Origin: an uncultured bacterium
GTDB lineage: Bacteria; UBP6; UBA1177
Assembly (NCBI GenBank): GCA_905235605.1
Contig: CAJOMF010000001.1
Span: forward strand, 6,967-70,966
DNA: 64,000 bases
Reading direction: 5' to 3'
In this document: positions 22,367 to 51,494 of the stretch, piece by piece
How positions within the stretch are numbered: position 1 is the first letter of the stretch
Layout of the letters: the number at the start of each line of letters is the position of its first letter
Translations under genes and position numbers: made by a program
Notes under the pieces: model-generated
Databases searched by the model: none
What the model was told of the DNA's origin: nothing
The model's input: only the letters and a program-made list of their open reading frames with translations

Positions 22367-22437
22367 AATCCCGAGATTCCGGAATCCGGTTCGCGCCGCC
22401 GGGATCCCGAGATCCCGTAATCCCGAGATCCCGGTAT
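22367..22437. repeat. GC-rich octamer-array element (copy A)
   Basis: aatcccga gattccgg aatccggt ... gccgccgg gatcccga gatcccgt aatcccga gatcccgg tat; 22395-22437 matches 38873-38915 at 40/43. Confidence 0.85.
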
Positions 22438-22447
22438 TATTTCGTCG

Positions 22448-23818
22448 TTAAATGTGAATCGCTCTTCCCAAAGCGCCGAGCAGCGCTTCAAGTGATGCTT
22501 CCGAAAGTGTCGGATGCGGATGGATCGATTCGACGATCTCTTCAGCGGTGAGTCCTGCGTTCATTGCCGGAATAAATTCAGAAATTAGGTCTGTTGCGCC
22601 GTTGCCGATGATGTGAACGCCGAGAAGTTTGTGCGTTTCTTCGTCAATTATGACTTTTACAAAACCGGTCGTGTGGTTTGCCGCAACTGCTTTTCCGTTT
22701 GCGCTGAAGGGGAATTTGCCGACTTTGAATTTGAGCCCTTTTTCAGCCGCCTGAGCTTCTTTGAGACCCATCGACGCGATCGAAGGAGTGCAGTAGATAC
22801 AAGCCGGATTGTAGAGGTAGTTTATCGGTTTAAGGTTTTTCATTCCCGCGATCTGCTCGACTGCAAGTATTCCTTCGTGCTCTGCCGTGTGTGCGAGCAT
22901 CGGAGTAAAAATGACGTCGCCGACCGCGTAGATTCCGGGAACATTCGTGCGGCAGAATTCGTCAACAGGGATGAAACCGCGTCTGTCCGGAGTGATCCCT
23001 GCAGCTTCGAGGTTGAGGTTTGCCGTATTGGGAGAACGTCCGACGCACGAAAGGACCTGCTCGGCTTCAACAACGTTTCCGTTTGCGAGGGTGAGGGTTA
23101 CCCCGGCATCGTTTTTTTCTGCCTTTTCAACGGAAGTACCTGTAATTATTTTGATTTTTTTCTTCTTAAACTCTTTTGTAAGTTCTTTGGAGATCTCAGC
23201 GTCTTCCATCGGGATAATGGTGTTCATCGCTTCGATTATCGTTACTTCGACTCCGAATGTGCGGTAGACGAATCCGAGCTCGACTCCGATCACGCCGCCG
23301 CCTATTATTGCAAGGCTTTTCGGCAGTTCAGCCTGGAAAAGAGCCTGATCTGAGCTGATGATTTTTTTGTTGTCGATCGAAAAATTGGGGAAATCGCGGA
23401 CGACTGAACCAGTAGCGATTATGATGTTTTCAGCGTCAAATTCGGTTTCACCTGCTTTCACGGTGTGTGCGGAAGTGAATTTCGCTTCAGCCTGAACTAG
23501 ACGGATATTGTTTTTCTTGAAAAGATATGCGATACCCGCTCTGTTTTTTGATGCCGCATTTTTAGCGTGCTCATTCACTTTTGTCCAGTCAAATTCAGCA
23601 TTTGCAGTAATTCCCAAAGCAGTTGCACTGAGTATCGAATTGAAGGTTTCAGCCGCCGAAATGAGTGCTTTTGTAGGGATGCAGCCGCGGTTGAGGCATG
23701 TTCCGCCCAAAAATCCGCGTTCGATGACGACCGGCTCTAACCCGAGCTGAGCCGCTCTGATTGCCGCAACATAACCGCCGGGACCAGCGCCGATGATGAG
23801 AAGTTTTACTTTTTCCAT
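22448..23818 (-). CDS. lpdA: Dihydrolipoamide dehydrogenase
   Basis: IGAGPGGYVAAIRAAQLG, GGTCLNRGCIP, IGGGVIGVE, HPHPTLSE. Confidence 0.95.
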   Translation of the reverse strand: MEKVKLLIIGAGPGGYVAAIRAAQLGLEPVVIERGFLGGTCLNRGCIPTKALISAAETFNSILSATALGITANAEFDWTKVNEHAKNAASKNRAGIAYLFKKNNIRLVQAEAKFTSAHTVKAGETEFDAENIIIATGSVVRDFPNFSIDNKKIISSDQALFQAELPKSLAIIGGGVIGVELGFVYRTFGVEVTIIEAMNTIIPMEDAEISKELTKEFKKKKIKIITGTSVEKAEKNDAGVTLTLANGNVVEAEQVLSCVGRSPNTANLNLEAAGITPDRRGFIPVDEFCRTNVPGIYAVGDVIFTPMLAHTAEHEGILAVEQIAGMKNLKPINYLYNPACIYCTPSIASMGLKEAQAAEKGLKFKVGKFPFSANGKAVAANHTTGFVKVIIDEETHKLLGVHIIGNGATDLISEFIPAMNAGLTAEEIVESIHPHPTLSEASLEALLGALGRAIHI

Positions 23819-23898
23819 TATTTCCTCCTTAAAAAATAAAAAAGAATCAGCAAATTGCGCGCAATGTTAGGAAAAAGCGTGAAAAAGGCAAATTTTAA

Positions 23899-24018
23899 CG
23901 GCGGCGGCAGATAATCACGGGATCACGGGATTACGGAATCTCGGGATCTCGGTGCCGCCGTCGGGATCTCGGTGCCGCCGTCGGGATCTCGGAATCACGT
24001 AATCACGGAATCCCGGTA
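23899..24018. repeat. GC-rich octamer-array element (compound copy B)
   Basis: 10 nATnnCGn octamers plus a duplicated tgccgccgtcgg-gatctcgg unit; 23973-24018 aligns to copy C. Confidence 0.85.
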
Positions 24019-24038
24019 GGAATCAGCAGCTGAAAAAA

Positions 24039-24066
24039 TTGCCTTTTTTATTCAAGGTTATATTCT
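24039..24066 (+). promoter_or_regulatory. Sigma70-like promoter of the radical SAM gene (TTGCCT-16-TATTCT)
   Basis: Hexamer matches upstream of ATG 24116. Confidence 0.4.
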
Positions 24067-24115
24067 GGTGACGCCTTGATTTGTGAAGGCTTGGTTTGAT
24101 TTTTGGTTGAATAAA

Positions 24116-25363
24116 ATGGAACTTATTGAAAAACTTGAGATTTTAGGCGCTGCGGCAAAGTTCGACGCAAGCTGTTCTTCAAGCGGAAGCAGCAGAAAAG
24201 GTGCCGCAGGAGGCATCGGGAGCGCGTACAGAGCCGGGATCTGTCACAGCTGGGCGGCTGACGGCAGGTGCATAAGTCTGCTCAAAGTTTTGTTCACGAA
24301 CTACTGCATAAACGACTGTGCATACTGCATCAACAGGCGCAGTAACGACGTGAAGCGGGCGACTTTTACGGTTGACGAGCTTGTGTCACTCACGATGAAT
24401 TTCTACAAAAGAAACTACATTGAAGGGCTTTTTCTGAGTTCCGGTATCATAAAAAACGCCGATTTTACTATGGAAAAGCTGATCGCGGTGGCAAAAAAAC
24501 TTAGAGATGAAGAAAGTTTCAACGGCTATATCCACCTCAAAGTTATCCCGGGAGCGAGTGACATTCTGATAAAAGAGGCGGGGCTTTATGCCGACAGAGT
24601 TTCTGTAAATATCGAACTTCCTTCAGAAAAAAGCCTGAAACTGCTCACTGAAAAAAGTAAGGAATCTATCATAAAACCGATGGGTGATATTTGCGGAGAC
24701 ATTGTCGAGAACCGCGAAGAGAGGAGAAAAACGAAAAAACTGCCGCTTTTTGCACCAGCCGGGCAGACGACTCAGCTCATTGTCGGTGCAACGCCTGAAA
24801 CCGACCGGAAAATTGTGAAACTGACCGAGGCATTTTATAAAAAATTCAGTATGAAAAGGGTCTACTATTCGGCATTCGTGCCGGTAAATTCCGACAAGCG
24901 CCTTCCGGTCGTTTCGCTGCCGCCGCTTGACCGGGAACACAGGCTCTATCAGGCCGACTGGCTCATGCGCTTTTACGGTTTTCAGGCTGATGAGATCGTG
25001 ACTGACGAAAATCCCTTTCTTTCAGATGACATTGATCCGAAGGCGGTCTGGGCGATGCGGAACATGCACCTTTTTCCGCTTGAAATCAACACAGCTGCGT
25101 TCGAAATGATCCTGCGTGTGCCGGGAATAGGGCGGCAGTCGGCAGTCAGAATAGTTTCGGCAAGAAGGAACGGCTCTCTTGATTTCGACGATCTCAAAAG
25201 GATCGGTGTCGTCCTCAAGAGGGCGCGCTATTTCATTACCTGCAAAGGAAAAATGATGCCTGAGACGGTTATTACCGAGAAAAATGTTTTTGAGGCGATG
25301 AAAACGACGAGCACTAAAGCCGGTGCGCCGGACCACACTATTGAGCAGCTTTCACTGTTTTGA
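24116..25363 (+). CDS. Putative DNA modification/repair radical SAM protein (TIGR03916-like)
   Basis: KLEILGAAAKFDASCSSSG, GICHSWAADGRCISLLK, CINDCAYC, HhH RVPGIGRQSA, REHRLYQADWL. Confidence 0.9.
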   Translation: MELIEKLEILGAAAKFDASCSSSGSSRKGAAGGIGSAYRAGICHSWAADGRCISLLKVLFTNYCINDCAYCINRRSNDVKRATFTVDELVSLTMNFYKRNYIEGLFLSSGIIKNADFTMEKLIAVAKKLRDEESFNGYIHLKVIPGASDILIKEAGLYADRVSVNIELPSEKSLKLLTEKSKESIIKPMGDICGDIVENREERRKTKKLPLFAPAGQTTQLIVGATPETDRKIVKLTEAFYKKFSMKRVYYSAFVPVNSDKRLPVVSLPPLDREHRLYQADWLMRFYGFQADEIVTDENPFLSDDIDPKAVWAMRNMHLFPLEINTAAFEMILRVPGIGRQSAVRIVSARRNGSLDFDDLKRIGVVLKRARYFITCKGKMMPETVITEKNVFEAMKTTSTKAGAPDHTIEQLSLF

Positions 25364-25367
25364 AACT

Positions 25368-26129
25368 ATGATTTTTTTATACGACGGCACATTCGAAGGT
25401 TTTCTGAGCGCGGTTTTTGACGCTTTTTCTGCCAAAGATGAAGTTGAGATTGAAAAAAAAGAGGGCTGGCAGCCGCAGCTTTTTGCTGATCCGGTAGAAG
25501 TCGAAACTGTGCAGGAAAAAGCGGAAAGAGTTGTAAATAAACTTCTTTCAATATGCGGGCGCCGCGGATTTTCGGCGATGATCCAGATTTTTCTTTCCGA
25601 AGAGGAAAACGCTGAAACATATACGTTTTACCTCATTAAATCGGTGATAAAATACGGTTCGAAGGCGTTTTCGCGCTTTCAGGACGAAAAAATCACGCGA
25701 GCTATGGAATTTAGAAAAAGAGTCTCTAAGGAGTGTGACAAAATTTTGGGAATTCTGCGCTTTACAGAGCTTGCAAACGGCGTTTTCTATGCTCCGTTCG
25801 AGCCTGATCACAATATTCTTCCTCTCATTACCGGTCATTTTTACGAGCGTCTTTCAGGATGCCGCTGGATGATCCACGACCTGAGACGCGGAATTGCAGT
25901 CTGTCACAGCGACGGAAAGATGGAAAATGTCGAATTTGCTGATGAAATGACATCTCACCTGAATATGGCGGATCTTCTGGGAAAATCTGAAAACGAAGAG
26001 GATTTCGCAAAAATGTGGCGCGGCTACTTCAAAATCATAGCCATTGAAACCCGCACGAATCCTAAATTACAAAGGCAGTTCATGCCGAAGCGTTACTGGA
26101 AATACATGACAGAAAAGAAAAACGGATGA
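25368..26129 (+). CDS. DUF4130 / TIGR03915-like putative DNA metabolism protein
   Basis: YDGTFEGFLSAVF, GILRF, FEPDHNILPL...HF..R, WMIHD, QRQFMPKRYWKYM. Confidence 0.9.
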   Translation: MIFLYDGTFEGFLSAVFDAFSAKDEVEIEKKEGWQPQLFADPVEVETVQEKAERVVNKLLSICGRRGFSAMIQIFLSEEENAETYTFYLIKSVIKYGSKAFSRFQDEKITRAMEFRKRVSKECDKILGILRFTELANGVFYAPFEPDHNILPLITGHFYERLSGCRWMIHDLRRGIAVCHSDGKMENVEFADEMTSHLNMADLLGKSENEEDFAKMWRGYFKIIAIETRTNPKLQRQFMPKRYWKYMTEKKNG

Positions 26130-26140
26130 TGGCTGCGTTG

Positions 26141-26168
26141 TTGACTTTATCTGCCGCAAACCGATAAT
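26141..26168 (+). promoter_or_regulatory. Possible sigma70-like promoter of the 760-aa orphan (TTGACT-16-GATAAT)
   Basis: Lies in the 87-bp gap before ATG 26217. Confidence 0.4.
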
Positions 26169-26216
26169 GCGGCATCTTTTGTTTATTGACTTATAGAGAG
26201 TAAATCACAAAAAAAT

Positions 26217-28499
26217 ATGAGTAAATTTCCTAAATTCGATGAAAAAGAAACCAAAGAAGGAAACATCAGGCGTGTTTTCTCTATATTTTTGGGAAAACTC
26301 GAAAATGAAAGACTGAGTCTGTGCCCCAAAGAAGCAAGGGAGGATTGGGCTGCCTTCAAAAAAGAGGCTCCGGCAGATGAATACGACAAACGGCTCCTCA
26401 GCGTCTGCAGCCAGGCACAGAGAGAAGAGCTGATGAAAGTGACATCTGAGCTTCTGACTGAAGAAGAGGCTAAGCAGCTGCTCGAAATCGCAAATCACGA
26501 TGACAAAAAGTTTTGGTTTGCAGATAAGTCTCTGAGTGACAAGGAGAAGTTTGTAGGAGGTTTTTATCACAAAGTCCTGCCGACGGTAATGTCGGTTTTT
26601 AATCCCCGTTTTGATGCGGTCAGAGTCGATTTTCTCAGGTATTTCATACTTTGGGACAACTTTGCGGAAGAACGGCGTTATGAAAAGGAAAACGAGAGTT
26701 TTTCGGATCATTTTTTTGTGCCGAAAGAGAGTTTTGATGCCTTTAAAAGCGGAGACACTCTTAAAAAACTTCAAACTGTCAGTGATATTCCTGCGTTATA
26801 TAAATTCGCGGCTGATGAAATTACCGCTGTGAGCCTGATAAAGCGCTTTGACAGAGAGTTCTATCCAAGTGAAAACGAATATTTGAGAGACTCGATTTCA
26901 ATCTCGGATTACAATAATGCGGCCAGGTGTTTTTACGAAATCTGCAAAGGAATTCTCAACAATACCGGCTTTCTGACTGCCGCCATAGATCAGGATCTGC
27001 TTTCCGCAAAGTTTGTTTTTGAAACTTTGAAATACAAGGAATATGTGGAAAAATGCCATGAAATTCTGGCCACAGCTTCCAAAATACTGATGACTGCAAA
27101 AACTGATGAGGAAGTTTTGTCTTTACGGAAGGAGCATGAAGGTAAAGGGATATTTGTCGTCAAAGTCGAAAGCGACGACGAGGATTCTTTGAAGAAAATT
27201 ATGTTTGAGCATGACTCTTATGACGAAATTCTTGAACGGGAAACAAAAGAGAAGCTCGCCGGAATCTTCTTTGAAAGTGAAGAAATGAAAAATTACCTTG
27301 CCGAAAAAGTTTCCGGGTTCGGTATTGGTATTGATGAATTCAGAAACAGAGAGTTTTTCTCTTTTATGATGAAACTCAATCCTGAGTATAGAAAGCCGAT
27401 AAAAAGGCGTGTGTTTAAAATAAATTTAAAAAATTTGGAGGAGTTGAAAGACGCCGGCGATCTTTTTGTGAATTTTGGCGAGATTTTGCTTGGACAGCTT
27501 GGACGCTGCTGCAACGGTGAAGCGGCGGAGTCTAAGGAAGAGGCACTTGAGTATCTCAAAGACTTTCTTGGAGAGTGGGTGCTCGGAAAATGGTATTTTA
27601 CGGAACTTCCGGAACTTTTTCAGAAAATAGTCTTGGTTTTGCAGACCTTGGATTTTTGCGGAAAAAGTGCCGATTTTTCCGAAGTCGGAATCGACAAAGA
27701 TGCTTTGAAAAAAGAGATAGACACGTTTTTGGGTGAGCTTAAAAAAATTGCTGCATCGGGTGGTAAACCGTCTGATTATTATGAAAACAAGCCTTTAGAG
27801 TCATATAATCTTCCTAATGTTGAATCCTATATCTCGACTCAGGCGTTTCACGCAGCCGTCTTGTTTTTGAGAGACTGCTTCGGTGCATGGAAAGCTGCAA
27901 AACCGATGCTCGCGATTTTCAGAAATCTCAAAGAACAGGCTTATTCGATCGATATGGAACATTACGAGTATGACCGTTACACCTGGGCTTTCGTGCCGGT
28001 GCGCATTACTCCGCTTCTCGGTGCGCTGGAAGGGGAAGAAGCTGCGAAAGTGTGCGAAGAGTGGTTCAAGCATCTTGCCGATCAGCTCAAATCTGCAGAT
28101 GATTTTGCAATAAACAAGCGCAGGGAAAACCCGGAAGAAGTGCCGGAAGAGTTCCGCGAGGGTTACGATATTACGGTCATTGAGCCGCATCCGCTCTGGA
28201 GAGAGGCTTTCTGTGAAGCGGCAGGGGATTTGAGAGTAAATTCCGGCTGCAAGTCAGTATTCAACCACCTGAAAAAAAATGATATCGACAAGGATGTCAG
28301 GGAAGCGGCGGCAAAAACTCTGGAGCGTATTGAAAAAATCAAGGGAAAATTCGATTCCGGTTCGAGAAAACGGGCGCTTCTCAACGCGTGGTGGTGGTAC
28401 AGAGTCGCTCACCTGAAAAGTCTTGGCATAGATTTCGACTGGGTTTCCGCGCAAAACCTTAAGAGCAAGGAAGTCAAAATAAATTATCCGAAAAATTAA
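26217..28499 (+). CDS. Hypothetical 760-aa cytoplasmic protein, predicted largely alpha-helical
   Basis: Long uninterrupted ORF; no signal peptide or recognised catalytic motif; HEAT-like DKDVREAAAKTL near the C-terminus. Confidence 0.8.
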   Translation: MSKFPKFDEKETKEGNIRRVFSIFLGKLENERLSLCPKEAREDWAAFKKEAPADEYDKRLLSVCSQAQREELMKVTSELLTEEEAKQLLEIANHDDKKFWFADKSLSDKEKFVGGFYHKVLPTVMSVFNPRFDAVRVDFLRYFILWDNFAEERRYEKENESFSDHFFVPKESFDAFKSGDTLKKLQTVSDIPALYKFAADEITAVSLIKRFDREFYPSENEYLRDSISISDYNNAARCFYEICKGILNNTGFLTAAIDQDLLSAKFVFETLKYKEYVEKCHEILATASKILMTAKTDEEVLSLRKEHEGKGIFVVKVESDDEDSLKKIMFEHDSYDEILERETKEKLAGIFFESEEMKNYLAEKVSGFGIGIDEFRNREFFSFMMKLNPEYRKPIKRRVFKINLKNLEELKDAGDLFVNFGEILLGQLGRCCNGEAAESKEEALEYLKDFLGEWVLGKWYFTELPELFQKIVLVLQTLDFCGKSADFSEVGIDKDALKKEIDTFLGELKKIAASGGKPSDYYENKPLESYNLPNVESYISTQAFHAAVLFLRDCFGAWKAAKPMLAIFRNLKEQAYSIDMEHYEYDRYTWAFVPVRITPLLGALEGEEAAKVCEEWFKHLADQLKSADDFAINKRRENPEEVPEEFREGYDITVIEPHPLWREAFCEAAGDLRVNSGCKSVFNHLKKNDIDKDVREAAAKTLERIEKIKGKFDSGSRKRALLNAWWWYRVAHLKSLGIDFDWVSAQNLKSKEVKINYPKN

Positions 28500-34111: not shown

Positions 34112-34967
34112 ATTGAAAAACAGCGGCACTCCTACGCCGGCTTTGGTCGTAAAACTTGTAATCGTACTTGTTTTTCTGCTCACGGCAGCTTTTGTGAGCG
34201 GAGTAGTCATAGGGAAAAACGGCAGGCGGAATGTCGACAGAACGAGTTCCGACGAAGAAGGGATAAATGAAAAACTTTCAAACTGCATTTTCAATTCAGA
34301 CGAACTTCGTGAAAAATACCTGAAACTCAGGGATGCGGCGCGTGAAAAAGGGCTTGTAGACGAGAATGACGTCGTCAACAGCAAGGTTGTCTGCAAACCT
34401 GAAACAAAACCCGTGGAAAAACCGGTTGAGCCTGAACCTGCACCCGTAGAGACGTCTCCTGAAACGTCTCCGGCAGGCAAACCCGACGAACCTGAATCCG
34501 TAGAGACGTCGCCTGAGACGTCTCAAAAAGAACCGTCTGAACCGGAAAAACCGAAACCTGTCGAAACAAAACCTGAAGAAAAACCCGTAGAAAAACCTGC
34601 AGACAAAAAAGTAGAGACGTCACCTGAGACGTCTCAAAAAGAACCCGCAAAACCGGAGAAAACCGAAAAACCTGATAAAAACAAGACGATCGATGAAATA
34701 CTGACAGAGAAAAAAGCGGAACCTGCGAAAGAAAAAGGGCAGAAGTGCCGCTATTCGATACAGATTTTTGCCGCAAACACAAAAGAGCAGGCTGATGCGG
34801 CTGCCAAAAAGCTGAAATCTCTGAAACCGCGCATTGTCAGCGGCGGGGACAAAGGTAAAACTTGGTATAAGCTGAGAACCGGCTGTTTCGATTCGGTAGA
34901 AGCCGCTGAAGCTGAATTGCCGAAAGTCAAAAAATCGGAAAAATCGGCATATATTGTCTCGGAATAA
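34104..34967 (+). CDS. SPOR-domain membrane protein (FtsN/DedD-like)
   Basis: GTG 34104 after GAGAGG; single TM, P/E/K-rich linker, YSIQIFAA...WYKLRTGCF SPOR domain. Confidence 0.85.
   Translation: MDKLKNSGTPTPALVVKLVIVLVFLLTAAFVSGVVIGKNGRRNVDRTSSDEEGINEKLSNCIFNSDELREKYLKLRDAAREKGLVDENDVVNSKVVCKPETKPVEKPVEPEPAPVETSPETSPAGKPDEPESVETSPETSQKEPSEPEKPKPVETKPEEKPVEKPADKKVETSPETSQKEPAKPEKTEKPDKNKTIDEILTEKKAEPAKEKGQKCRYSIQIFAANTKEQADAAAKKLKSLKPRIVSGGDKGKTWYKLRTGCFDSVEAAEAELPKVKKSEKSAYIVSE
34446..34635 (+). repeat. Three in-frame GTAG REP-like hairpins (34446-34470, 34500-34524, 34611-34635)
   Basis: GTAGAGACGTCNCCTGARACGTCTC, each encoding VETSPETS. Confidence 0.75.
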
Positions 34968-35492: not shown

Positions 35493-35513
35493 TTTCTTAA
35501 AATTCAATCTCTA

Positions 35514-35537
35514 TATATCGATATTTCGATATCACGA
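35514..35537. repeat. AT-rich octamer array (nATnnCGn x3)
   Basis: tatatcga tatttcga tatcacga, between convergent stops. Confidence 0.6.
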
Positions 35538-35539
35538 TA

Positions 35540-36343
35540 TTAAAGACTGAGGGATTTCCTCGGTTTTTCAGGTCTTGGATTGTCTGAAGTTGCCGTGTAG
35601 TCGAAGTTTACTTCAACTTCGTCGTCGCTGTCTCCTTTCGGGAAGACGGTGTCTTCAAGTTTTTCGACAGTACAGTTGATAACGTATTTGTCGGTGAAAG
35701 TGTTGTTTCTGAGTTTGATGTCGTAAACTTCGCCGTCAGGGTCGATTGTGAATTTGAGTGTGAATTTTCCCTGTAATTTCGGGTTCTTTGCTTTGCGGTT
35801 ATCGAAGCATTCCTTGAACTTCTTCATCTTTGCAAGCGAAGCTATCGTCTGTGTGCGCAGATCGTTTACTTTATGTTTCTCCTTAGCTCTGTGTTTTTCT
35901 TTTACGACCTTGTAGGAAAGAGTGAATTCGGCATCTCTGGAATTTCCGGGTCTTACACCGATCTGTTCCATCTCTTTTTTGATGCATTTCGCGATTTTGT
36001 TGGCATTTTTCGATTTCATTTTCTCGATTTCGATCGTTTCGAAAAAGCCTTCATCGTCGATATTGAGGTCAAAACCGATATTCATGTTTTCGGCTTCGCC
36101 GGGTTTTACAGTGACCTGGTAGCAGTTGATAAAATCCTCATCGAGCATCTTCATTTTGCGGGCGACTTCGTTATCTTTTGAGTATCCGTAGACTTTAAGC
36201 GTTTCGCCGCCTTCGATTTCGACGTATCCTATTTCGGAGTTGTCACTTTTTTTCGTGTTTTTTTTGGAAGATTTTTTTCCCGATGAACAGGAAAAAACAG
36301 CGCTCAGGCAAACAATTAGAAAGATAACGAATAATTTCTTCAC
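35540..36343 (-). CDS. Lipoprotein with two AgmX/PglI-C (TonB-C-like) domains
   Basis: GTG start overlapping the upstream TGA; lipobox VFSC; KECFDN..KNPKLQGKFTLKFTIDPDG.V...NC. Confidence 0.8.
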   Translation of the reverse strand: MKKLFVIFLIVCLSAVFSCSSGKKSSKKNTKKSDNSEIGYVEIEGGETLKVYGYSKDNEVARKMKMLDEDFINCYQVTVKPGEAENMNIGFDLNIDDEGFFETIEIEKMKSKNANKIAKCIKKEMEQIGVRPGNSRDAEFTLSYKVVKEKHRAKEKHKVNDLRTQTIASLAKMKKFKECFDNRKAKNPKLQGKFTLKFTIDPDGEVYDIKLRNNTFTDKYVINCTVEKLEDTVFPKGDSDDEVEVNFDYTATSDNPRPEKPRKSLSL

Positions 36344-38863: not shown

Positions 38864-38869
38864 TTTTTT

Positions 38870-38927
38870 GCCGCCGCCGGGATCCCGTGATTCCGTAATC
38901 CCGAGATTCCGGTATAAATACGGCGGC
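38870..38927. repeat. GC-rich octamer-array element (copy C) with terminal inverted repeats
   Basis: GCCGCCG ... gatcccgt gattccgt aatcccga gattccgg ... CGGCGGC, 7 nt after a stop. Confidence 0.85.
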
Positions 38928-43000: not shown

Positions 43001-43059
43001 TGCCGCAGCCTGGATTCAGTAATCGCGAAATCTCGAGATCCAGGTATTTTACGGCGGCA
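43001..43059. repeat. Diverged GC-rich octamer-array element (copy D)
   Basis: TGCCGC..cctg gattcagt aatcgcga aatctcga gatccagg tatttta..GCGGCA; same layout as copy C. Confidence 0.75.
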
Positions 43060-45377: not shown

Positions 45378-46053
45378 TTCAAAAAAAGCGGTCGTCCTTT
45401 TCAGCGGCGGCCTCGATTCAACAACGGTTTTAGTTTATGCGCTGAAACATGGATACGGCGTTTATCCGCTCACTTTTTCCTACGGTCAGAGGCACGCGAT
45501 CGAAATAAAACAGTCGGAAAGAACGCTTGAAAAATACGGGCTTCTGAACCGGCAGACGATATTTTCGATTGACCTCACGCCTTTTGTTAACTGCTCGCTC
45601 ATCAACAAAAATCTTGAAGTTCCCGAATTTGCCGAAAACAGGATCCCTTCGACCTACGTGCCGTCGCGGAACCTGATTTTTCTCTCGGTTGCTTCGGGTT
45701 TCGCCGAAACTTTGGGCGCGGAAAAGATTTTCATCGGCGTCAATTCGGTCGATTACTCGGGCTACCCGGACTGCCGTCCTGAATTTGTCGATGCCTTCAA
45801 CAAAACTATCGCCGTCGGCACGAAGCAGGGTGTCGAGAGCGGAATTGAAGTTGCTGCACCGATCCTCAACATGTCGAAAAAGGAGATAGTTGAGCTCGGA
45901 ATGTCGCTCGGAGTCGATTATTCGCTCACTCACAGCTGCTACAATCCGACTCCCGACGGGTTTTCCTGCGGGGTCTGCGACAGCTGCCGCCTTCGTCTGG
46001 AGGGTTTCAGGCAGGCAGGATTTGCTGATCCGCTCAATTACGTGCACCGATAA
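45370..46053 (+). CDS. queC: 7-cyano-7-deazaguanine synthase
   Basis: VVLFSGGLDSTT, YGQRH, TYVPSRN, YPDCRPEF, CGVCDSC. Confidence 0.95.
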   Translation: MNDSKKAVVLFSGGLDSTTVLVYALKHGYGVYPLTFSYGQRHAIEIKQSERTLEKYGLLNRQTIFSIDLTPFVNCSLINKNLEVPEFAENRIPSTYVPSRNLIFLSVASGFAETLGAEKIFIGVNSVDYSGYPDCRPEFVDAFNKTIAVGTKQGVESGIEVAAPILNMSKKEIVELGMSLGVDYSLTHSCYNPTPDGFSCGVCDSCRLRLEGFRQAGFADPLNYVHR

Positions 46054-46056
46054 AAC

Positions 46057-46084
46057 TTGTTTTTCATCTGATTTTCTTTAAAAT
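46057..46084 (+). promoter_or_regulatory. Possible sigma70-like promoter (TTGTTT-16-TAAAAT)
   Basis: Upstream of ATG 46117. Confidence 0.35.
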
Positions 46085-46116
46085 TTCTGCCGTTTGATCT
46101 TTTTTAGGAGGAAAAA

Positions 46117-47277: not shown

Positions 47278-47285
47278 TCTCCGTA

Positions 47286-47825
47286 ATGAAAATCATCCGC
47301 GTCAACAAAGATCTGATCCTCAAGGAACTGGAACTTTCTGACGCGGAACATATCTTCAAAACAATCGATTCGCAGCGCGGATATCTCGGCGAATGGCTGC
47401 CGTTCGTCGAATTTACGAAAAGTATCAAAGACTCCCTTGATTACGTCAATTCAGTCGTGACTATGCCGGAAGAGTGTAAAGAATGGCAGTTCGCTGTTTT
47501 CTGCGGCGGTGATTTTGCCGGACTTGCCGGATTCAAAGGAACTGACAGGCTCAACCGCAAAAGCGAGATCGGCTACTGGCTTAGAGAGGAGTTCCAGGGC
47601 CGCGGCATAATGACCGAATCAGTCCGTGCTCTGATAAATTTCGGCTTTTCTGAGCTCGGTCTCAACAGGATCCAGATAAAATGCGCTCCCGACAACATCA
47701 AAAGCAACAAAATCCCGCAAAGACTCGGTTTTCATCTTGAAGGGATAGAGCGCGACAGCGAATTTGTGCGCGAAAACGTTTTCCGTGACGCCAATGTCTG
47801 GAGTCTTCTGAAAAAAGAGCTCTGA
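47286..47825 (+). CDS. GNAT acetyltransferase, RimL/RimJ family
   Basis: YLGEWLPFV, EIGYWL..EFQGRGIMT, N..SNKIPQRLGF.LEG. Confidence 0.9.
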   Translation: MKIIRVNKDLILKELELSDAEHIFKTIDSQRGYLGEWLPFVEFTKSIKDSLDYVNSVVTMPEECKEWQFAVFCGGDFAGLAGFKGTDRLNRKSEIGYWLREEFQGRGIMTESVRALINFGFSELGLNRIQIKCAPDNIKSNKIPQRLGFHLEGIERDSEFVRENVFRDANVWSLLKKEL

Positions 47826-47855
47826 TATCGTTATTTCGATATCTCGATATTACGA
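47824..47855. repeat. AT-rich octamer array (nATnnCGn x4) overlapping two convergent gene ends
   Basis: gatatcgt tatttcga tatctcga tattacga; overlaps the GNAT TGA and encodes the lipA tail and its TAA. Confidence 0.65.
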
Positions 47856-48700
47856 TCAATCATGCTTTGGTGGATTTCCTTTGCGTTGAATGAGCTTCTG
47901 ACGAATCTGCCTGAGTAAACTTCTTTGAATCCGATTTCCAAACCGTAGTCGCGCAGTGCGTCAAATTCAGCCTGAGTGTAGTCCTTTTCGACCGGAATGT
48001 GTTGCAGCGACGGGCGGAAATACTGTCCGATCGTCATGATATCGCAGCCGACATCGCGCAGATCGCGCATCAGAGCGTGCACTTCGTCAACTGTTTCGCC
48101 GACGCCGAGCATTATTCCCGATTTCGTGATGAAACCTTTGCGCTTCATGTAACAGAGAACGTCAAGCGAGCGCCTGTAATCGGCCTGCGGGCGCACTTTT
48201 GAGTATAAAGACGGGATCGTTTCGACATTGTGGTTGAAAACGTCTATCGGCGAATCGGCAACGATGTCGAGATTTTCTTTTATTCCGAGGAAATCGGGAG
48301 TGAGCACTTCGACCAGTGTGTCTGGAGATAACCCCTTGACTTTTTTGACTGTTTCGGCAAAGTGCGTCGCTCCGCAGTCGGGCAGGTCGTCTCTTGTTAC
48401 CGAGGTTATTACGGTGTAAAGCAGGCCTAAATCCTTAACGGCAAGTGCAAGGTTCATAGGCTCATTCGGATCGGGAAGGGGAATGTTTTCATTATGGACT
48501 ATGTTGCAGAAGCGGCAGTTGCGCGTGCAGCTGTTCCCGAGGATCAGGAAAGTCGCCGTTCTTTTCTTAAAGCAGTCGCCGATATTCGGGCAGTGCGCCG
48601 ATTCGCAGACCGAATGAAGGTGGTGCAGACGCAGAATTTTTTTCATTTCGGCGACAAAAGGGGATTTGAAAGTCGATTTTTTGAGCATTTCTTCAGCCAT
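47831..48700 (-). CDS. lipA: Lipoyl synthase
   Basis: CESAHCPNIGDC (CX4CX5C), CTRNCRFC, VRSS. Confidence 0.95.
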   Translation of the reverse strand: MAEEMLKKSTFKSPFVAEMKKILRLHHLHSVCESAHCPNIGDCFKKRTATFLILGNSCTRNCRFCNIVHNENIPLPDPNEPMNLALAVKDLGLLYTVITSVTRDDLPDCGATHFAETVKKVKGLSPDTLVEVLTPDFLGIKENLDIVADSPIDVFNHNVETIPSLYSKVRPQADYRRSLDVLCYMKRKGFITKSGIMLGVGETVDEVHALMRDLRDVGCDIMTIGQYFRPSLQHIPVEKDYTQAEFDALRDYGLEIGFKEVYSGRFVRSSFNAKEIHQSMIDRNIEISK

Positions 48701-48764
48701 GATTTGCCTCATTGAACATTCATAAAACGCGGGATTTAAGCCTTTGCAAAGGCTGTTGTCAAGG

Positions 48765-49784
48765 TTAATTTTTTACTCTTCCGAGCTGTCCGCATGCAGC
48801 GAGTTTGTCTCCGCCGCGCGATTTTCTGATGAGTGCGGTTACATTTTTGGCAATCAGGATATTCTGGAAGTCAATGATTTTTTTTATCGGTGTCGGCTCG
48901 AAAGCGGCTCCGTCAAAGGTGTTGAAGGGGATGAGATTGACTTTTGAATCGTATCTTTTCGCGATTTTTGCGAGTTTTTCGGCGTCCTCGGGAGTGTCGT
49001 TGAAATTCTTGAGCATGACGTATTCGAGTACGACCATTTTTCGCGTGACCGGATAGGAGTCTATCGCTCTGAGCAGTGCCGAAAGCGGATATTTCTTGTT
49101 TATCGGCATGATTTTGTTTCGTTTTTCGTCAGTAACGGCATGAAGTGAAACTGCAAGGTTGACTTTCGTCTTTTCGCCGAGTTCGACGATTTTATCGGCA
49201 ATTCCCGAAGTCGAAACGGTGATTTTCCTGTTTGAAAAGTTGAAGCAGAAATCGTCAAGGAGGATATCTATTGCATCAAGCAGGTTTTCGAAGTTGAGGA
49301 GCGGCTCTCCCATTCCCATGAAAACGAGGTTCGTTATCCTTTTTCCGCTTTTTTCGGCTTCGATCTGTGCCGCCAAAACCTGACCTGTGATCTCTGAAAC
49401 CGTGAGATCCCGCTTGAAACCGAGGCTTCCTGTCCGGCAGAAAGCGCAGTGGAGCGGGCATCCCGCCTGAGTCGAGACGCAGAGCGTGCAGCGGGTTTCT
49501 TCGGGAATGATGACAGTTTCGACCACGTTTCCGTCGGAAAGTTTGAAAGCGAGTTTCTGCGTGCCGTCAGACGAGGTAAAGACTTCTTCGGGCTGCATCG
49601 GCGTGATCGTGAAAAGTTCTGCAAGTTTCGCACGGTCGTCCTTGCTGATGTTGCTCATTTCATCGAACGAAAAGACTCTTTTCTGGTAGATCCACTGAGT
49701 AATCTGTGTCGCCCTGAATTTTGCAAAGCCGTTGTCAAGTAGCGCACTTTCTAAATTTTTTCTAGTAATATCAAATATTTCCAT
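48765..49784 (-). CDS. rlmN: 23S rRNA/tRNA m2A methyltransferase
   Basis: CVSTQAGCPLHCAFC, MGMGEP, AACGQL. Confidence 0.95.
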   Translation of the reverse strand: MEIFDITRKNLESALLDNGFAKFRATQITQWIYQKRVFSFDEMSNISKDDRAKLAELFTITPMQPEEVFTSSDGTQKLAFKLSDGNVVETVIIPEETRCTLCVSTQAGCPLHCAFCRTGSLGFKRDLTVSEITGQVLAAQIEAEKSGKRITNLVFMGMGEPLLNFENLLDAIDILLDDFCFNFSNRKITVSTSGIADKIVELGEKTKVNLAVSLHAVTDEKRNKIMPINKKYPLSALLRAIDSYPVTRKMVVLEYVMLKNFNDTPEDAEKLAKIAKRYDSKVNLIPFNTFDGAAFEPTPIKKIIDFQNILIAKNVTALIRKSRGGDKLAACGQLGRVKN

Positions 49785-49788
49785 TTTT

Positions 49789-50655
49789 TTACCAGCCGAA
49801 AAAGAATGAAAGCATTGAATTTATGATTTCAGTCGGAAGCAGGAACATGACGAGGCCTCCGAAAGCGAGGAACGGGCCGAAATAAATCGCGTGTTCGACA
49901 TCCTTTTCCTCTTTTGAATTGAGGTCTTCAGCCGAAATGTTTCCGGCGATGCGTTTTTTGCCGAATATGAGTTTCGCCGCGAGATAGAAAATTATGCCGC
50001 CGAGCGATGCAATTAAAAGAATGAAAGGGATCAAAGTCGGGCCTGTGAATGCGCCGATCGCTGCAAGGATGTAGACGTCACCCAGCCCCATGCCGATTTT
50101 TCTGGTTACGAGGTAGAAAAGAAGTATTGCAAGCAGAAGGAATCCCGCGCCGACGCCGATCCCGATGAGAGACTGCTGCCAGCTGAAAGTCGGCTCGAAA
50201 AAGCTCCACAAAATCCCCATGAAAACCGGAGGGATTATGACTTTTGAGTAGACGAACTGCGTTCTGTAATCAATCGCTGCCGTCACGACAAGTGCCGAAA
50301 TGAAGTAAAGCGGGAGTATCAGGCGCAGATGAAGCCCGAATTTAAGGAATGCAAAAAGGTATAAAAACGCGTTCAGAAGCTCGATCGTCGGGTAAATCAG
50401 CGAGATTTTTTCGCCGCAGCCCGAACATTTTCCGCGAAGAAATATCCAGCTTAAAACGGGAATATTTTCGTACCACGTGATTTTGTGGTTGCATTTCGTG
50501 CAGGAACTCGGCGGAAATACGATGCTTTTGCCGAGCGGGATGCGGTAAATGCAGACATTGAGAAAACTGCCGAAAAGAAGCCCGTAAATAAAGACAAAAA
50601 CTGCGGAAAATGCCGCAAAACGCGGCGAATTTAAAAGCTCGAAAAATTCTTCCAT
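49789..50655 (-). CDS. pilD: Prepilin peptidase (A24)
   Basis: GSFLNVCIYRIP, SSCTKC, LRGKCSGC, IDY, GMGLGDV, FGPFL. Confidence 0.9.
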   Translation of the reverse strand: MEEFFELLNSPRFAAFSAVFVFIYGLLFGSFLNVCIYRIPLGKSIVFPPSSCTKCNHKITWYENIPVLSWIFLRGKCSGCGEKISLIYPTIELLNAFLYLFAFLKFGLHLRLILPLYFISALVVTAAIDYRTQFVYSKVIIPPVFMGILWSFFEPTFSWQQSLIGIGVGAGFLLLAILLFYLVTRKIGMGLGDVYILAAIGAFTGPTLIPFILLIASLGGIIFYLAAKLIFGKKRIAGNISAEDLNSKEEKDVEHAIYFGPFLAFGGLVMFLLPTEIINSMLSFFFGW

Positions 50656-50723
50656 GAAAAAACCTCGAATCAACAAAAAACCAGTAATTTTTGACATGTT
50701 TTAATAAAAGTCAATCAAATTCG

Positions 50724-50786
50724 GCGGCGCAGATCGTGATCCCGTGATTCCGTTATTCCGTGATCCCGGCAAGACTTCGGCGCCGC
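50724..50786. repeat. GC-rich octamer-array element (copy E)
   Basis: GCGGCGC ... gatcccgt gattccgt tattccgt gatcccgg ... GCGCCGC. Confidence 0.8.
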
Positions 50787-50844
50787 TCTTGTTTTTCCCC
50801 CGGCTTTTCTTTAAAATCTGCTCAACTTGTTTTTGGAGGACGAA

Positions 50845-51435
50845 ATGAAAATAGTTTTTGCATCGGGAAACAAGGGAAAATTGATGGAAGCATCGGAAAT
50901 TTTCAAAGGTTTTGAGATCGTTCCGATAAGCGCTTTTTCTGCTTGGCATGCGCCGGATGAAAACGGTTCGACTTTCCTGCAGAACGCGGTGATAAAGGCT
51001 GAAGCGGCAGCAGAGGCGGCTGAAGGAGAGATCGTTCTGGCTGATGATTCCGGCCTGGTTGTTCCCGCTTTGAACGGTGCTCCCGGCATTTTTTCGGCAC
51101 GTTTTTCTGCGGAGGGGACCGATGCCGCAAACAGAAAAAAATTGCTCTGCGAACTTTCAAAAGTCAGCGACAGAAGCGCATACTTCATCTGCACGGCCGT
51201 CCTTATTTTTCCGGACAGAACCGTGATTGCCGCAGAGGGAAGGTGCTGCGGAAAAATAATTGAAACCGAGCGCGGAGAAAACGGCTTCGGCTACGATCCG
51301 GTTTTTGTTCCGGAAGGTTACGGCAAAACTCTGGCGGAACTGTCCGAAGAAGAGAAAAACGCGGTCAGCCACCGCGGAAAAGCGTTTCGGAAATTGATTT
51401 CCCGCGCCGCAGATCTTCACGGGATCACGGGATAA
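50845..51435 (+). CDS. rdgB: Non-canonical purine NTP pyrophosphatase (RdgB/HAM1)
   Basis: FASGNKGK, ENG.TF..NA..KA, ADDSGL, GFGYDPVF, SHRGKA. Confidence 0.95.
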   Translation: MKIVFASGNKGKLMEASEIFKGFEIVPISAFSAWHAPDENGSTFLQNAVIKAEAAAEAAEGEIVLADDSGLVVPALNGAPGIFSARFSAEGTDAANRKKLLCELSKVSDRSAYFICTAVLIFPDRTVIAAEGRCCGKIIETERGENGFGYDPVFVPEGYGKTLAELSEEEKNAVSHRGKAFRKLISRAADLHGITG

Positions 51436-51494
51436 CGGAATCACGGAATTCCGAAGCGGCGCAATGCCTGGATCTCGTGATCTCGAGAACCCGA
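51404..51494. repeat. GC-rich octamer-array element (copy F) overlapping the rdgB 3' end
   Basis: GCGCCGC ... gatcacgg gataacgg aatcacgg aattccga ... GCGGCGC, then gatctcgt gatctcga. Confidence 0.8.

What the first reader, a model, noticed from the sequence alone, without database searches (positions are those of the whole stretch)
22367..51494. Dispersed family of 8-bp-unit arrays built on a self-complementary ATnnCGnn frame
Seen: six GC-rich clusters (A 22367-22437, B 23899-24018, C 38870-38927, D 43001-43059, E 50724-50786, F 51404-51494). Each has 4-10 tandem octamers such as GATCCCGA, GATTCCGT, AATCCCGA and GATCACGG. AT and CG are nearly fixed at 4-bp spacing while the other positions vary. 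Because the reverse complement of ATnnCGnn is a permutation of itself, the array has a dyad every 4 bp. Copies are capped by GCCGC(C)G/CGGCGGC or GCGGCGC/GCGCCGC inverted ends, and A and C match at 40/43. Several start within 10 nt of a stop codon. Inference: this is a lineage-specific REP/MITE-like element or a cooperative protein-binding array. I do not recognise it as a described REP/BIME/ERIC class. Many units contain GATC, so methylation could control binding.
Basis: partly seen in the sequence, partly recalled or inferred. Interest (0 to 1): 0.8.

Follow-up and report, generated by a model that had tools for sequence, protein, structure and literature searches.

The report
GC-clamped octamer hairpin repeat family
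The window carries a real, apparently undescribed family of about 58-base non-coding hairpin repeats scattered between housekeeping genes of an uncultured ruminant-gut bacterium; they behave like the REP/BIME repeats of E. coli (copied, inverted, gained and lost between strains) but have an unusual interior of four fixed-frame octamers.

Summary
All six clusters exist at the stated coordinates. The regex gives 9 hits against 0.01 in shuffles.

The clusters are not open-ended arrays. They are modules of 57-60 nt: a G/C-only 6-7 bp inverted clamp, then (T)TCG, then exactly four nnATnnCG units, then an A/T-rich spacer of about 10 nt, then the closing clamp.

The window holds 8 full modules and 4 partial arrays. 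All lie in the 5.5% of the window that is intergenic.

Several modules form head-to-head inverted doublets.

The same module occurs in other unclassified ruminant-gut MAGs. It is absent from more distant relatives.

Syntenic loci show:
- a clean empty site (D);
- a 24-nt, three-unit slippage deletion (E);
- a whole-insert inversion;
- a 56/60-identical module at a different locus;
- replacement of the interior by other short-unit families (9-mer CCTTAAGGA, octamer CGTCACGN) within clamps of similar size.

Best reading: a lineage-specific REP/BIME-like dispersed hairpin repeat. Its mobilising enzyme is unknown.

It lacks the GTAG motif, and no RAYT gene was found. Interior variable positions do not covary. 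GATC is not enriched.

Terminator and protein-array readings are not excluded for individual copies, but nothing supports either as the general role.

The parts
5911..5974 (+). Capped module with A/T-rich octamer interior (CGCCGG ... TCGGCG). It lies between the SpoIID-like gene stop and the next gene.
   Evidence: cap search; fold -26 kcal/mol; CM 29 bits, E 1e-4, full length.
22364..22390 (.). A1: partial array (about 3 units) abutting the central cap of cluster A. It starts 2 nt after the stop of the ABC-ATPase-like gene.
   Evidence: weak CM hits.
22391..22448 (+). A2: full module with a degenerate 3' cap, between convergent genes. It is 45/51 identical to C.
   Evidence: (62.6 bits).
23901..23960 (-). 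B1: full module, the left half of a head-to-head doublet in the Lpd / radical-SAM divergent spacer.
   Evidence: (61 bits).
23941..23992 (.). Perfect 20-bp tandem duplication (unit + cap, TCGGGATCTCGGTGCCGCCG x2.6) between B1 and B3.
   Evidence: TRF: period 20, 100% matches.
23973..24030 (+). B3: module with no clear 3' cap, the right half of the doublet. The whole cluster is nested in the palindromic flanks AAAAAGGCAAATTTT ... AAAAATTGCCTTTTT.
   Evidence: (49 bits).
35507..35546 (.). Uncapped A/T-rich array in the same ATnnCGnn frame, between convergent genes.
   Evidence: interior-only hit.
38869..38927 (+). C: full module starting 6 nt after the M29 peptidase stop.
   Evidence: 61.3 bits. 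The orthologous site is occupied by other interior families in relatives.
43001..43058 (+). D: full module starting 7 nt after the BNR/sialidase-like gene stop. It has CAG for CCG at both outer units (a compensated pair). It is absent from the orthologous site in relatives with 82-86% BNR identity.
   Evidence: 47 bits; empty site.
47817..47864 (.). Uncapped A/T-rich array at the acetyltransferase / radical-SAM convergent junction. The radical-SAM ORF ends inside it.
50724..50786 (+). E: full module in the divergent spacer between the prepilin peptidase and Ham1 genes. Strains with a 99%-identical BNR protein lack exactly 3 of its units (24 nt).
   Evidence: (59.6 bits).
51404..51462 (-). F1: full module. 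The Ham1 ORF reads about 10 codons into it (stop at 51433-51435). Its core is 27/28 identical to E in inverted orientation.
   Evidence: (61.8 bits).
51456..51506 (+). F2: shorter module sharing the central cap GCGGCGC with F1 and followed by TGAATTTTTTT. It is a plausible Ham1 terminator hairpin.
   Evidence: In L206 the same stem encloses a 13-nt loop.

Best explanation
These are copies of a lineage-specific, non-coding, dispersed hairpin repeat. It is of the REP/BIME (REPIN-like) kind but has its own architecture.

**Architecture.** One module is about 58 nt. A G/C-only 6-7 bp inverted clamp encloses about 45 nt. Those 45 nt are (T)TCG, four direct octamers on an invariant nnATnnCG frame, and an A/T-rich spacer of about 10 nt on one side only. 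When single-stranded (DNA or RNA), the clamp closes. The interior can then form a weak, mismatch-punctuated hairpin held by the self-complementary AT and CG dinucleotides and their R/Y flanks.

**Shown:**
- Modules are copied as whole units, clamps included, to new intergenic sites.
- They are found alone, in tandem, or as head-to-head inverted doublets.
- They are gained or lost, and inverted, between close relatives.
- Their interior changes by slippage in whole octamers.
- Related species carry differently tuned interiors (other 8- or 9-nt palindrome-cored units) in clamps of the same overall size.

**Inferred:**
- They propagate at the DNA level through a hairpin intermediate. This would involve either a dedicated enzyme of the RAYT/Y1 type, not yet found, or template-switch/gene-conversion processes at quasi-palindromes.
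- Most copies are neutral or selfish passengers of intergenic DNA.
- A few copies (F2, the Lpd-proximal side of A, and the convergent-gene sites) have been co-opted as 3'-end or terminator hairpins.
For: **Reality and specificity.**
- Regex: 9 hits against 0.01 in shuffles.
- 22 modules from 10 loci align without gaps. AT x4 and CG x5 are invariant, and cap-to-cap length is 57-60 nt.
- The covariance model gives 47-68 bits for full modules in this lineage. It gives <=43 bits for octamer arrays of 100 other loci. It gives nothing in relatives with 72% Lpd identity or 58-74% BNR identity.

**Intergenic only.** All 9 sites lie in the 5.5% of the window that is non-coding.

**Dispersal and mobility.**
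- A2 and C are 45/51 identical.
- The E core and the F1 core are 27/28 identical in inverted orientation.
- The L183 module and the L208 module, at different loci, are 56/60 identical including the clamps.
- Site D is filled in the window and in strains with 98-99% BNR identity. It is empty in relatives with 82-86% identity.
- The insert at the B site is inverted between L174 and L183: 81/86 identity as reverse complement, within conserved flanks.

**Slippage.** There is a 24-nt (3-unit) deletion at E in L200/L201 and a perfect 20-bp duplication in B.

**Doublets.** Head-to-head pairs occur at B, F, L070, L108, L116 and L140.

**Family turnover.** Sites C, E and F in L206/L207/L213 hold clamped 5 x CCTTAAGGA modules. 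Site C in L208/L209 holds a clamped CGTCACGN module.

**No match to known RNAs.** Rfam gives no hit even at E<=1.
Against: - No transposase of any kind was seen in the window or in about 0.6 Mb of related loci. tblastn with E. coli RayT gave only a hit in an unrelated Sphingomonas locus and a spurious one. Pfam lists for L200-L213 show none.
- There is no conserved GTAG-like tetranucleotide beside the hairpin.
- Only one clean empty site was found. Its target duplication (AATTG/AATTTG) is uncertain.
- Site C is occupied in every relative examined. That could also mean a hairpin is needed there.
- The invariant AT/CG, together with uncompensated variable positions, is not explained by hairpin selection alone.
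- Copy number per genome could not be measured.
Confidence: 0.6

Rival explanations
1. The modules are primarily functional RNA hairpins: intrinsic terminators, 3'-end stabilisers, or RNase III-type processing sites with a lower stem, an asymmetric internal loop and an upper stem. They are maintained by selection at each gene end. The repeat character is then a by-product of slippage and gene conversion.
For: - Seven of the 9 window sites lie downstream of at least one stop codon.
- F2, E and the Lpd side of A are followed by T-rich tracts. The scan flags 22381-22364(-) as terminator-like.
- Canonical terminators in the same window use the same G/C-only stems, for example GCCGC-TTCG-GCGGC + T7 at 53911-53924.
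- At site F of L206 the same stem + T8 encloses a plain 13-nt loop.
- Sites C, A and the acetyltransferase/radical-SAM junction carry some hairpin array in every relative, though its sequence differs.
Against: - About one third of sites lie between divergently transcribed genes: B, E, L093, L108a, L140 and L138-1588.
- There is no consistent orientation relative to transcription.
- C and its orthologues are followed by an A-run, not a T-run.
- The sense strand has no folding advantage over the antisense strand.
- Site D is simply absent in relatives.
Confidence: 0.15
2. The octamer array is a cooperative binding platform for a multimeric DNA- or RNA-binding protein that reads AT and CG in an 8-nt register. 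This would be in the manner of ribbon-helix-helix operators: MetJ metboxes, omega heptads, ParG tetramer boxes. Binding might be modulated by GATC methylation.
For: - AT and CG are invariant in 22/22 aligned modules. The neighbouring positions vary without compensation, and those flanking CG are unpaired in 17/22 and 13/21.
- The unit number is fixed at four.
- Units within a module are direct repeats with a consistent asymmetry, as shown by the CM strand preference of about 60 against about 35 bits.
- The same frame recurs, without clamps, in rumen Bacteroidales MAGs and in a viral contig.
Against: - No candidate protein was identified and no operator-like association with particular genes was seen. 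The sites flank unrelated housekeeping genes in every orientation.
- Sister modules at the same sites use completely different units (CCTTAAGGA, CGTCACGN).
- GATC occurs in 12/33 units, no more than the base frequencies at positions 1 and 4 predict. It is absent from the A/T-rich and 9-mer subfamilies.
- The Bacteroidales arrays were found with a pattern that imposed this frame.
Confidence: 0.12
3. The arrays are ordinary hypermutable short tandem repeats (microsatellite or contingency-type) that arise in situ in the loops of pre-existing GC-stem hairpins. There would be no copying between sites.
For: - Unit-number change by slippage is seen at E in L200/L201 and as the 20-bp duplication in B.
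- Perfect octamer microsatellites of this frame occur in many phyla.
- F2 occupies the loop of what is a plain terminator stem in L206.
Against: - Full modules, including clamps and spacer, share sequence between different loci: 45/51 and 56/60.
- Unit number is fixed at four in 22 modules.
- At site D the clamps are absent together with the array in the empty allele.
- The interior families are shared across sites within a genome.
Confidence: 0.08

Closest known systems
REP / BIME elements and REPINs of Enterobacteria and Pseudomonas (RAYT-associated)
   Same: - Short non-coding imperfect palindromes confined to intergenic DNA, often just after stop codons.
- High local density, here about one per 5-8 kb.
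- They occur singly, in clusters, or as inverted doublets.
- They are variable between strains at orthologous sites.
- The sequence class changes between related species.
   Different: - Modules are 57-60 nt rather than 20-40 nt.
- The stem is a G/C-only clamp of variable sequence, plus an interior of four direct octamers on an invariant ATnnCG frame.
- There is no GTAG/GTGG tetranucleotide.
- No RAYT gene was found in the DNA available.
- About one third of copies lie between divergent genes.
STRR (short tandemly repeated repetitive) heptamer arrays of filamentous cyanobacteria, and the heptamer repeats of Beggiatoa
   Same: Dispersed intergenic arrays of 7-9 nt units that can form hairpins. 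Their function is unknown but has been suggested to be transcript stability or translational coupling (PMC2670836; bioRxiv 10.1101/2022.06.06.494920).
   Different: - Here the units are 8 nt (9 nt in a sister family).
- The copy number is fixed at four (five in the sister family).
- The array is enclosed by a G/C clamp with a one-sided spacer, which makes a discrete module.
- The phylum is different.
Terminator-like dispersed repeats (for example SPRITE of Streptococcus pneumoniae, Correia elements of Neisseria). Named from my own knowledge; not checked here.
   Same: Repeats that look like, and sometimes act as, transcription terminators at gene ends. The canonical terminators in this window share the clamp-type stem.
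   Different: Most modules here lack the U-tract, and many are not downstream of a gene. The tandem-octamer interior has no counterpart.
Tandem 8-bp operator arrays of ribbon-helix-helix repressors (MetJ metbox AGACGTCT; ParG 4+4 bp boxes; omega WATCACW heptads). Named from my own knowledge.
   Same: Head-to-tail short units with internal two-fold symmetry, and CG recurring every 8 bp.
   Different: - The metbox frame is CGnnTAnn, not CGnnATnn.
- Operators are few and gene-specific. They are not clamped and are not dispersed at hundreds of sites.
- No cognate protein was identified.

Membership tests
REP/BIME (RAYT-associated REP, REPIN) | Dispersed, multi-copy, strictly extragenic imperfect palindromes | tested here: met
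   There are 8 full and 4 partial copies at 9 sites in the 5.5% of the window that is non-coding. Copies occur in at least 4 other MAGs. Predicted folds are -25 to -62 kcal/mol.
REP/BIME (RAYT-associated REP, REPIN) | Conserved GTAG/GTGG tetranucleotide at the 5' foot of the hairpin | tested here: not met
   Flank composition of 22 oriented modules shows only TT before the clamp and weak A-richness after it. No GTAG is present.
REP/BIME (RAYT-associated REP, REPIN) | Cognate RAYT (Y1 HUH transposase) gene in the genome, typically flanked by REPs | tested here: inconclusive
   tblastn of E. coli RayT against all 1.77 Mb held gave no hit in lineage loci. The only hits were L074 (Sphingomonas) and a spurious one in L108. 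Only a small fraction of any genome of this lineage was available.
REP/BIME (RAYT-associated REP, REPIN) | Clusters or inverted doublets of units | tested here: met
   Head-to-head doublets occur at B, F, L070, L108, L116 and L140. Direct tandems occur in L138.
MITE | Terminal inverted repeats matching a transposase's ends, and target-site duplication | tested here: inconclusive
   The clamps are only 6-7 bp, G/C-only, and variable in sequence. The single filled/empty comparison (site D) is compatible with an AATTG/AATTTG duplication, but the flanks have diverged.
Integron attC site | R''/R' core sites (RYYYAAC ... GTTRRRY) at the ends of a structured 57-141 bp palindrome, in cassette arrays next to intI | tested here: not met
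   The ends are G/C-only clamps and no GTTRRRY is present. The flanking genes are syntenic housekeeping genes, not cassettes, and no integrase was seen.
Intrinsic (Rho-independent) terminator | G+C-rich hairpin immediately followed by a U-tract on the transcribed strand, downstream of a gene | tested here: inconclusive
   The feature is met for F2, E(+) and A(-). It is not met for C, D (weak) or B. About one third of sites are between divergent genes.
Cyanobacterial STRR arrays | Tandem heptamer units of a few fixed sequences, in variable number, in heterocystous cyanobacteria | tested here: not met
   Units are 8 nt (9 nt in the sister family) and the number is fixed. The host's ProRS is closest to Spirochaetia at 59-65% identity.
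CsrA/Rsm-sequestering RNA | Multiple GGA motifs presented in loops | tested here: not met
   GGA occurs per unit only on one strand of the G/C-rich subfamily. It is absent from the CGAAATTT and CCTTAAGGA modules at the same sites. Rfam gives no hit.
Any Rfam family | Covariance-model match | tested here: not met
   There are no matches at gathering score in the window. There are none at E<=1 in 22000-52000.

The most novel reading that the evidence does not exclude
The invariant AT/CG frame is the recognition code of a trans-acting multimeric protein that reads single- or double-stranded nucleic acid in an 8-nt register. The observations behind this reading are:
- the frame has uncompensated variable positions;
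- the unit number is fixed (four octamers, or five nonamers, filling the same interior of about 45 nt);
- the frame recurs without clamps in rumen Bacteroidales and in a viral contig.

The protein could be a new kind of hairpin-repeat mobilisation enzyme, or a genome-wide structural or regulatory factor. Its specificity would switch between species (GATCCCGW, CGAAATTT, CGTCACGN, CCTTAAGGA), much as RAYT/REP pairs co-evolve.
Probability: 0.15. Interest if true: 0.8.

Novelty: new variant of a known kind. Interest (0 to 1): 0.5.

Why it matters
**If the reading is right.** This adds a structurally distinct class to the REP/BIME/REPIN and STRR world. The host is an uncultured, probably Spirochaetota-related, ruminant-gut lineage.

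The class is a discrete clamped module. Its interior is a fixed-number tandem array, and the unit sequence is swapped between sister species while the size and the sites are kept.

That pattern is a natural experiment on what such repeats are selected for: size and foldability rather than sequence. It also points to an unidentified mobilising or binding factor.

**Practical consequences.**
- The modules extend or truncate annotated ORFs (Ham1 and a radical-SAM protein end inside them).
- They are likely to break short-read assemblies.
- They would give strain-typing markers analogous to REP- or STRR-PCR.
- They are hotspots of strain-level variation, which matters when comparing MAGs.

Tried and rejected
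- **Rfam.** Searches at gathering score and at E<=1 found nothing.
- **Literature.** Full-text searches for nine characteristic strings found no relevant paper.
- **Taxonomy.** A look-up of RGIG7134, RGIG2292 and RGIG10212 in the supplements of PMC8199421 found nothing in the held text.
- **RAYT search.** tblastn with E. coli RayT gave only an unrelated Sphingomonas hit. A weak L108 hit lies antisense inside a real membrane-protein gene, so it was rejected.
- **attC.** Rejected: no R'/R'' cores, no cassettes, no integrase.
- **CRISPR-like array.** Rejected: the modules are dispersed, with no spacers.
- **Coding repeat.** Rejected: an 8-nt period and an intergenic location.
- **CsrA sponge and GATC/Dam control.** Rejected as family-wide explanations, because the sister subfamilies lack GGA and GATC.
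- **RNA-strand signature.** The sense-versus-antisense folding energy showed no consistent difference.
- **Orientation.** No rule was found relative to flanking genes.
- **Generic inverted-repeat finder.** The tool was uninformative at window scale.
- **Cap complementarity.** The own-versus-cross comparison is circular, because the modules were chosen by their caps. It was replaced by the non-circular test.

Full report
**1. Observation**

Each is a G+C-rich island (about 60% G+C in a 46% window). Each is made of octamers such as GATCCCGA, GATTCCGT, AATCCCGA and GATCACGG, bracketed by G/C-only inverted heptamers.

The suggested regex gives 9 hits in the window. In 100 dinucleotide-preserving shuffles the mean was 0.01 and the maximum 1. 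A looser frame score gives 34 positions against 0.13.

Tandem Repeats Finder independently reports period-8 arrays at A, B, E and F, and a perfect 20-bp duplication inside B.

Over 36 units, the composition is A2 33/36, T3 35/36, C6 30/36 and G7 35/36. These counts include three mis-framed F2 units, which account for part of the departures. Position 1 is R, position 4 is Y, and positions 5 and 8 are free.

- a capped module at 5911-5974;
- an uncapped A/T-rich array at 35507-35546;
- an uncapped A/T-rich array at 47817-47864.

**2. Anatomy**

I searched for G/C-only inverted pentamers or hexamers around arrays, in the window and in related loci. The cap-to-cap length came out remarkably constant at 57-60 nt.

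Twenty-two modules from the window and nine other loci align without internal gaps. The order is:
- clamp;
- (T)TCG;
- four copies of nnATnnCG, so AT x4 and CG x5 are invariant;
- a spacer of about 10 nt, A/T-rich, whose third base is nearly always A;
- clamp.

The 'arrays of 4-10 octamers' are therefore discrete modules with a fixed unit number. The long clusters are doublets.

The module is asymmetric. A covariance model built from the alignment scores full-length hits at 47-63 bits on one strand. On the other strand it scores only the interior, at about 35 bits.

By that criterion the window holds these full modules: A2(+), B1(-), B3(+), C(+), D(+), E(+), F1(-) and the 5911 module (+).

B and F are head-to-head inverted pairs that share or abut the central clamp. 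The same arrangement is seen in L070, L108, L116 and L140. L138 has direct tandems.

Clamps are not an artefact of my selection:
- 14/32 lineage arrays defined by skeleton alone have perfect G/C-only inverted caps;
- 5/143 arrays from other genomes do;
- 57/4500 random positions do.

**3. Is the interior a hairpin?**

Minimum-free-energy folds close the clamp and pair the interior. I then counted pairs on the alignment for the full symmetric interior helix:
- The AT and CG dinucleotides pair in 100% of cells, because they are invariant and self-complementary.
- The R/Y positions next to AT pair in about 70%.
- The two positions flanking each CG are unpaired in 17/22 and 13/21 sequences.

Covariation is barely above the shuffles (26/500 reach the observed score). 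RNAalifold's covariation term is -0.09 kcal/mol.

Within a module the units are direct repeats with one polarity. They read AT-Y-C-CG-W-R or its complement. That polarity produces the systematic C.A and C.U mismatches.

So the interior is at best a weak, interrupted helix. The invariance of AT and CG is not accounted for by compensatory hairpin evolution. This is the one feature I cannot explain.

**4. Context**

The window encodes ordinary chromosomal genes:
- MlaE/MlaF-like proteins, dihydrolipoyl dehydrogenase and radical-SAM proteins;
- LeuC/LeuD-type dehydratase subunits, M29 peptidase, an ankyrin protein and a BNR/sialidase-like protein;
- QueC, prepilin peptidase and Ham1/RdgB;
- ProRS, ribosomal protein S1 and a sigma factor.

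No tRNA gene was found and no Rfam family. No transposase was seen.

With my gene set, coding density is 94.5%. All nine element sites fall in the remaining 5.5%. Four sites lie between co-directional genes, three between convergent genes and two between divergent genes. That is about what the intergenic lengths predict.

In the other MAG loci, several copies also lie between divergent genes. There is no orientation rule relative to transcription.

The Ham1 ORF reads about 10 codons into F1 (stop at 51433-51435). A radical-SAM ORF ends inside the 47817-47864 array.

**5. Distribution**

I ran a pattern scan of one genome per species. It found the same clamped module in unclassified ruminant-gut MAGs:
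- RGIG7134 (water buffalo);
- RGIG2292 (goat);
- RGIG10212 (yak);
- Tb.RUG.391.

Their scores with the model are 56-68 bits.

The remaining hits fall into two groups. Some are perfect octamer microsatellites from many phyla. Others are unclamped, variable ATnnCGnn arrays that fill short spacers between genes in rumen Bacteroidales, Prevotella and Muribaculaceae MAGs. None of these exceeds 43 bits.

The window's own source is an ENA metagenome assembly. Its proteins are labelled only '[bacterium]' in public records. The nearest named ProRS relatives are Spirochaetia at 59-65% identity. I therefore infer a Spirochaetota-related uncultured lineage.

These relatives have no module:
- those with 72% Lpd identity, from sludge and digesters;
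- those with 58-74% BNR identity.

**6. Comparative evidence for turnover**

I obtained syntenic loci around Lpd and around the BNR gene. They gave five kinds of event.

(a) Presence or absence at site D. The site carries the module in the window and in all strains with 98-99% BNR identity. In relatives with 86% and 82% identity, the stop codon is followed directly by the conserved promoter-like A/T-rich sequence. The clamps are missing together with the array, so the clamp belongs to the inserted unit.

(b) Slippage at site E. In L200/L201 the site lacks exactly 24 nt, which is three octamers, between two GTGATCCCG repeats.

(c) Inversion upstream of Lpd. The insert in L183 is the reverse complement of that in L174 (81/86 identity). 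Both sit between the same flanks, which are themselves an inverted repeat: AAAAAGGCAATTTT ... AAAATTGCCTTTTT.

(d) Dispersal. A2 and C are 45/51 identical. The module after Lpd in L183 is 56/60 identical, clamps included, to one at a different locus in L208/L209. E and F1 share a 27/28 core that contains a rare TTAT unit, in opposite orientation.

(e) Family replacement.
- In L206/L207/L213, sites C, E and F hold clamped modules of similar size. Their interior is five copies of the nonamer CCTTAAGGA.
- In L208/L209, site C holds a clamped module of CGTCACGN octamers.
- Around Lpd, close relatives carry CGAAATTT-type and GTGACG-type arrays where the window has GATCCCGW.

The interior between the clamps stays near 45 nt in all of these families. 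Every unit type has a short palindromic core: GATC, TCGA/AATT, ACGT or CTTAAG.

**7. What it most likely is**

These properties together are those of a REP/BIME- or REPIN-like dispersed hairpin repeat:
- strict intergenic location and high local density;
- whole-module sequence similarity between loci;
- a filled and an empty allele;
- inversion and inverted doublets;
- species-specific sequence classes at conserved sites.

That is my best explanation (0.6). The step I cannot show is the mobilising activity. No RAYT/Y1 or other transposase is present in the roughly 0.6 Mb of lineage DNA I could read. The GTAG foot that defines RAYT-type REPs is also absent. So I do not file the element as a REP in the strict sense.

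**8. Rivals**

A terminator or 3'-hairpin role is plausible for some copies:
- F2 is followed by T7.
- The scan flags the Lpd side of A.
- Bona fide terminators in this window use identical clamp-type stems, for example GCCGC-TTCG-GCGGC + T7 at 53911-53924.

It fails as the general rule for these reasons:
- Many copies lie between divergent genes.
- Orientation is random.
- C is followed by an A-run.
- Neither strand folds better than the other.
- D is dispensable.

A protein-binding array in the RHH-operator manner is the reading that best fits the invariant, uncompensated AT/CG frame and the fixed unit number. It has no positive evidence. It is also hard to square with the unrelated units used at the same sites by sister species.

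The GATC/methylation idea is weakened. GATC occurs in 12/33 units, as expected from the base frequencies, and it is absent from the sister families.

Pure in-situ microsatellite evolution explains the slippage. It does not explain the inter-locus identity, the fixed number, or the loss of clamps at the empty site.

**9. Known relatives and novelty**

The closest known kinds are:
- REP/BIME/REPIN, for behaviour;
- the STRR heptamer arrays of filamentous cyanobacteria, for make-up. These are short intergenic tandem units that can form hairpins and have no known function (PMC2670836; bioRxiv 10.1101/2022.06.06.494920).

Neither has the clamp + fixed four-unit + one-sided-spacer module. I found no description of this family in Rfam or in the searchable literature.

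I rate it a new variant of a known kind. Interest is moderate. It is a solid, well-delimited new repeat family with one puzzling feature, the invariant frame. It also has a suggestive but biased echo in rumen Bacteroidales and in a viral contig.

Noticed in passing
L058, L064, L086, L095, L099, L104, L106, L123, L134, L137, L150 (rumen Bacteroidales/Prevotella/Muribaculaceae MAGs): Unclamped, variable arrays in the same ATnnCGnn frame, with 4 to about 30 units (for example GGGATTAC/GGGATCAC, AAATCCCG/AAATCTCG). Most fill short spacers between genes, often from the stop codon to a few bases before the next start; L086 and one of the three L064 arrays lie inside ORFs. They were found with a pattern that imposed the frame, so over-representation is untested.
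   Followed up: partly
L018 + L020 (IMGVR_UViG_3300032007_000471, 17.8 kb): One viral contig carries seven dispersed unclamped ATnnCGnn octamer arrays of the Bacteroidales type (TCATTTCG/ACATTTCG, AAATCTCG/AAATCCCG).
   Followed up: no
L074 3283-3954 and 4528 onward (Sphingomonas MAG); also L076, L100, L105, L127, L135, L154, L163: The perfect microsatellite (GGAATTAC)n recurs in unrelated phyla. In L074 it lies about 570 bp from a RAYT/IS200-like ORF, which was the only RayT tblastn hit in 1.77 Mb.
   Followed up: partly
L206/L207/L213 sites C, E, F; L208/L209 site C; L171, L172, L174, L200 near Lpd or the acetyltransferase gene: Sister module families sit in clamps of the same size: five nonamers of CCTTAAGGA (palindromic CTTAAG core), and octamers of CGTCACGN/GTRACGNN.
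   Followed up: partly
window 53911-53924 and 60958-60979(-): Canonical intrinsic terminators (GCCGC-TTCG-GCGGC + T7; GGGCAC-TTCG-GTGCCC + T-run). The first uses the same G/C-only stem and TTCG start as the modules. It could be a collapsed module or the ancestral form.
   Followed up: partly
window 51404-51435 and 47831-47864: The Ham1/RdgB ORF and a radical-SAM ORF terminate inside elements. Their C-termini therefore differ between strains that carry different inserts.
   Followed up: partly
window 14869-15084: Period-9/18/27 tandem repeat (CGGATCAGT and variants, about 11 copies) inside the 490-aa ORF 13693-15165(-), which has no family match. It is probably a repetitive low-complexity protein segment.
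   Followed up: no
window 34449-34635 and about 11439-11460; L208/L209 about 3790-3815: Recurrent GAGACGTCTC / GAGACGTTTC...GAAACGTCTC palindromes. Three lie inside the SPOR-domain gene region, one forms an intergenic hairpin, and a similar one occurs in relatives.
   Followed up: no
window about 2382-2438; L208/L209 about 3650-3730: A hairpin of the type GTCATTCTGAG...CTCAAGATGAC occurs in an intergenic spacer of the window. A similar one occurs at another site in relatives. This may be a second dispersed hairpin family.
   Followed up: no
L208 about 3730-3800 (and L209): A 21-bp tandem repeat, GGCGGCCGATCACCGCAAACA, with 3 copies in L208 and 2 in L209. It lies at the site where the window has the 35507-35546 array.
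   Followed up: no
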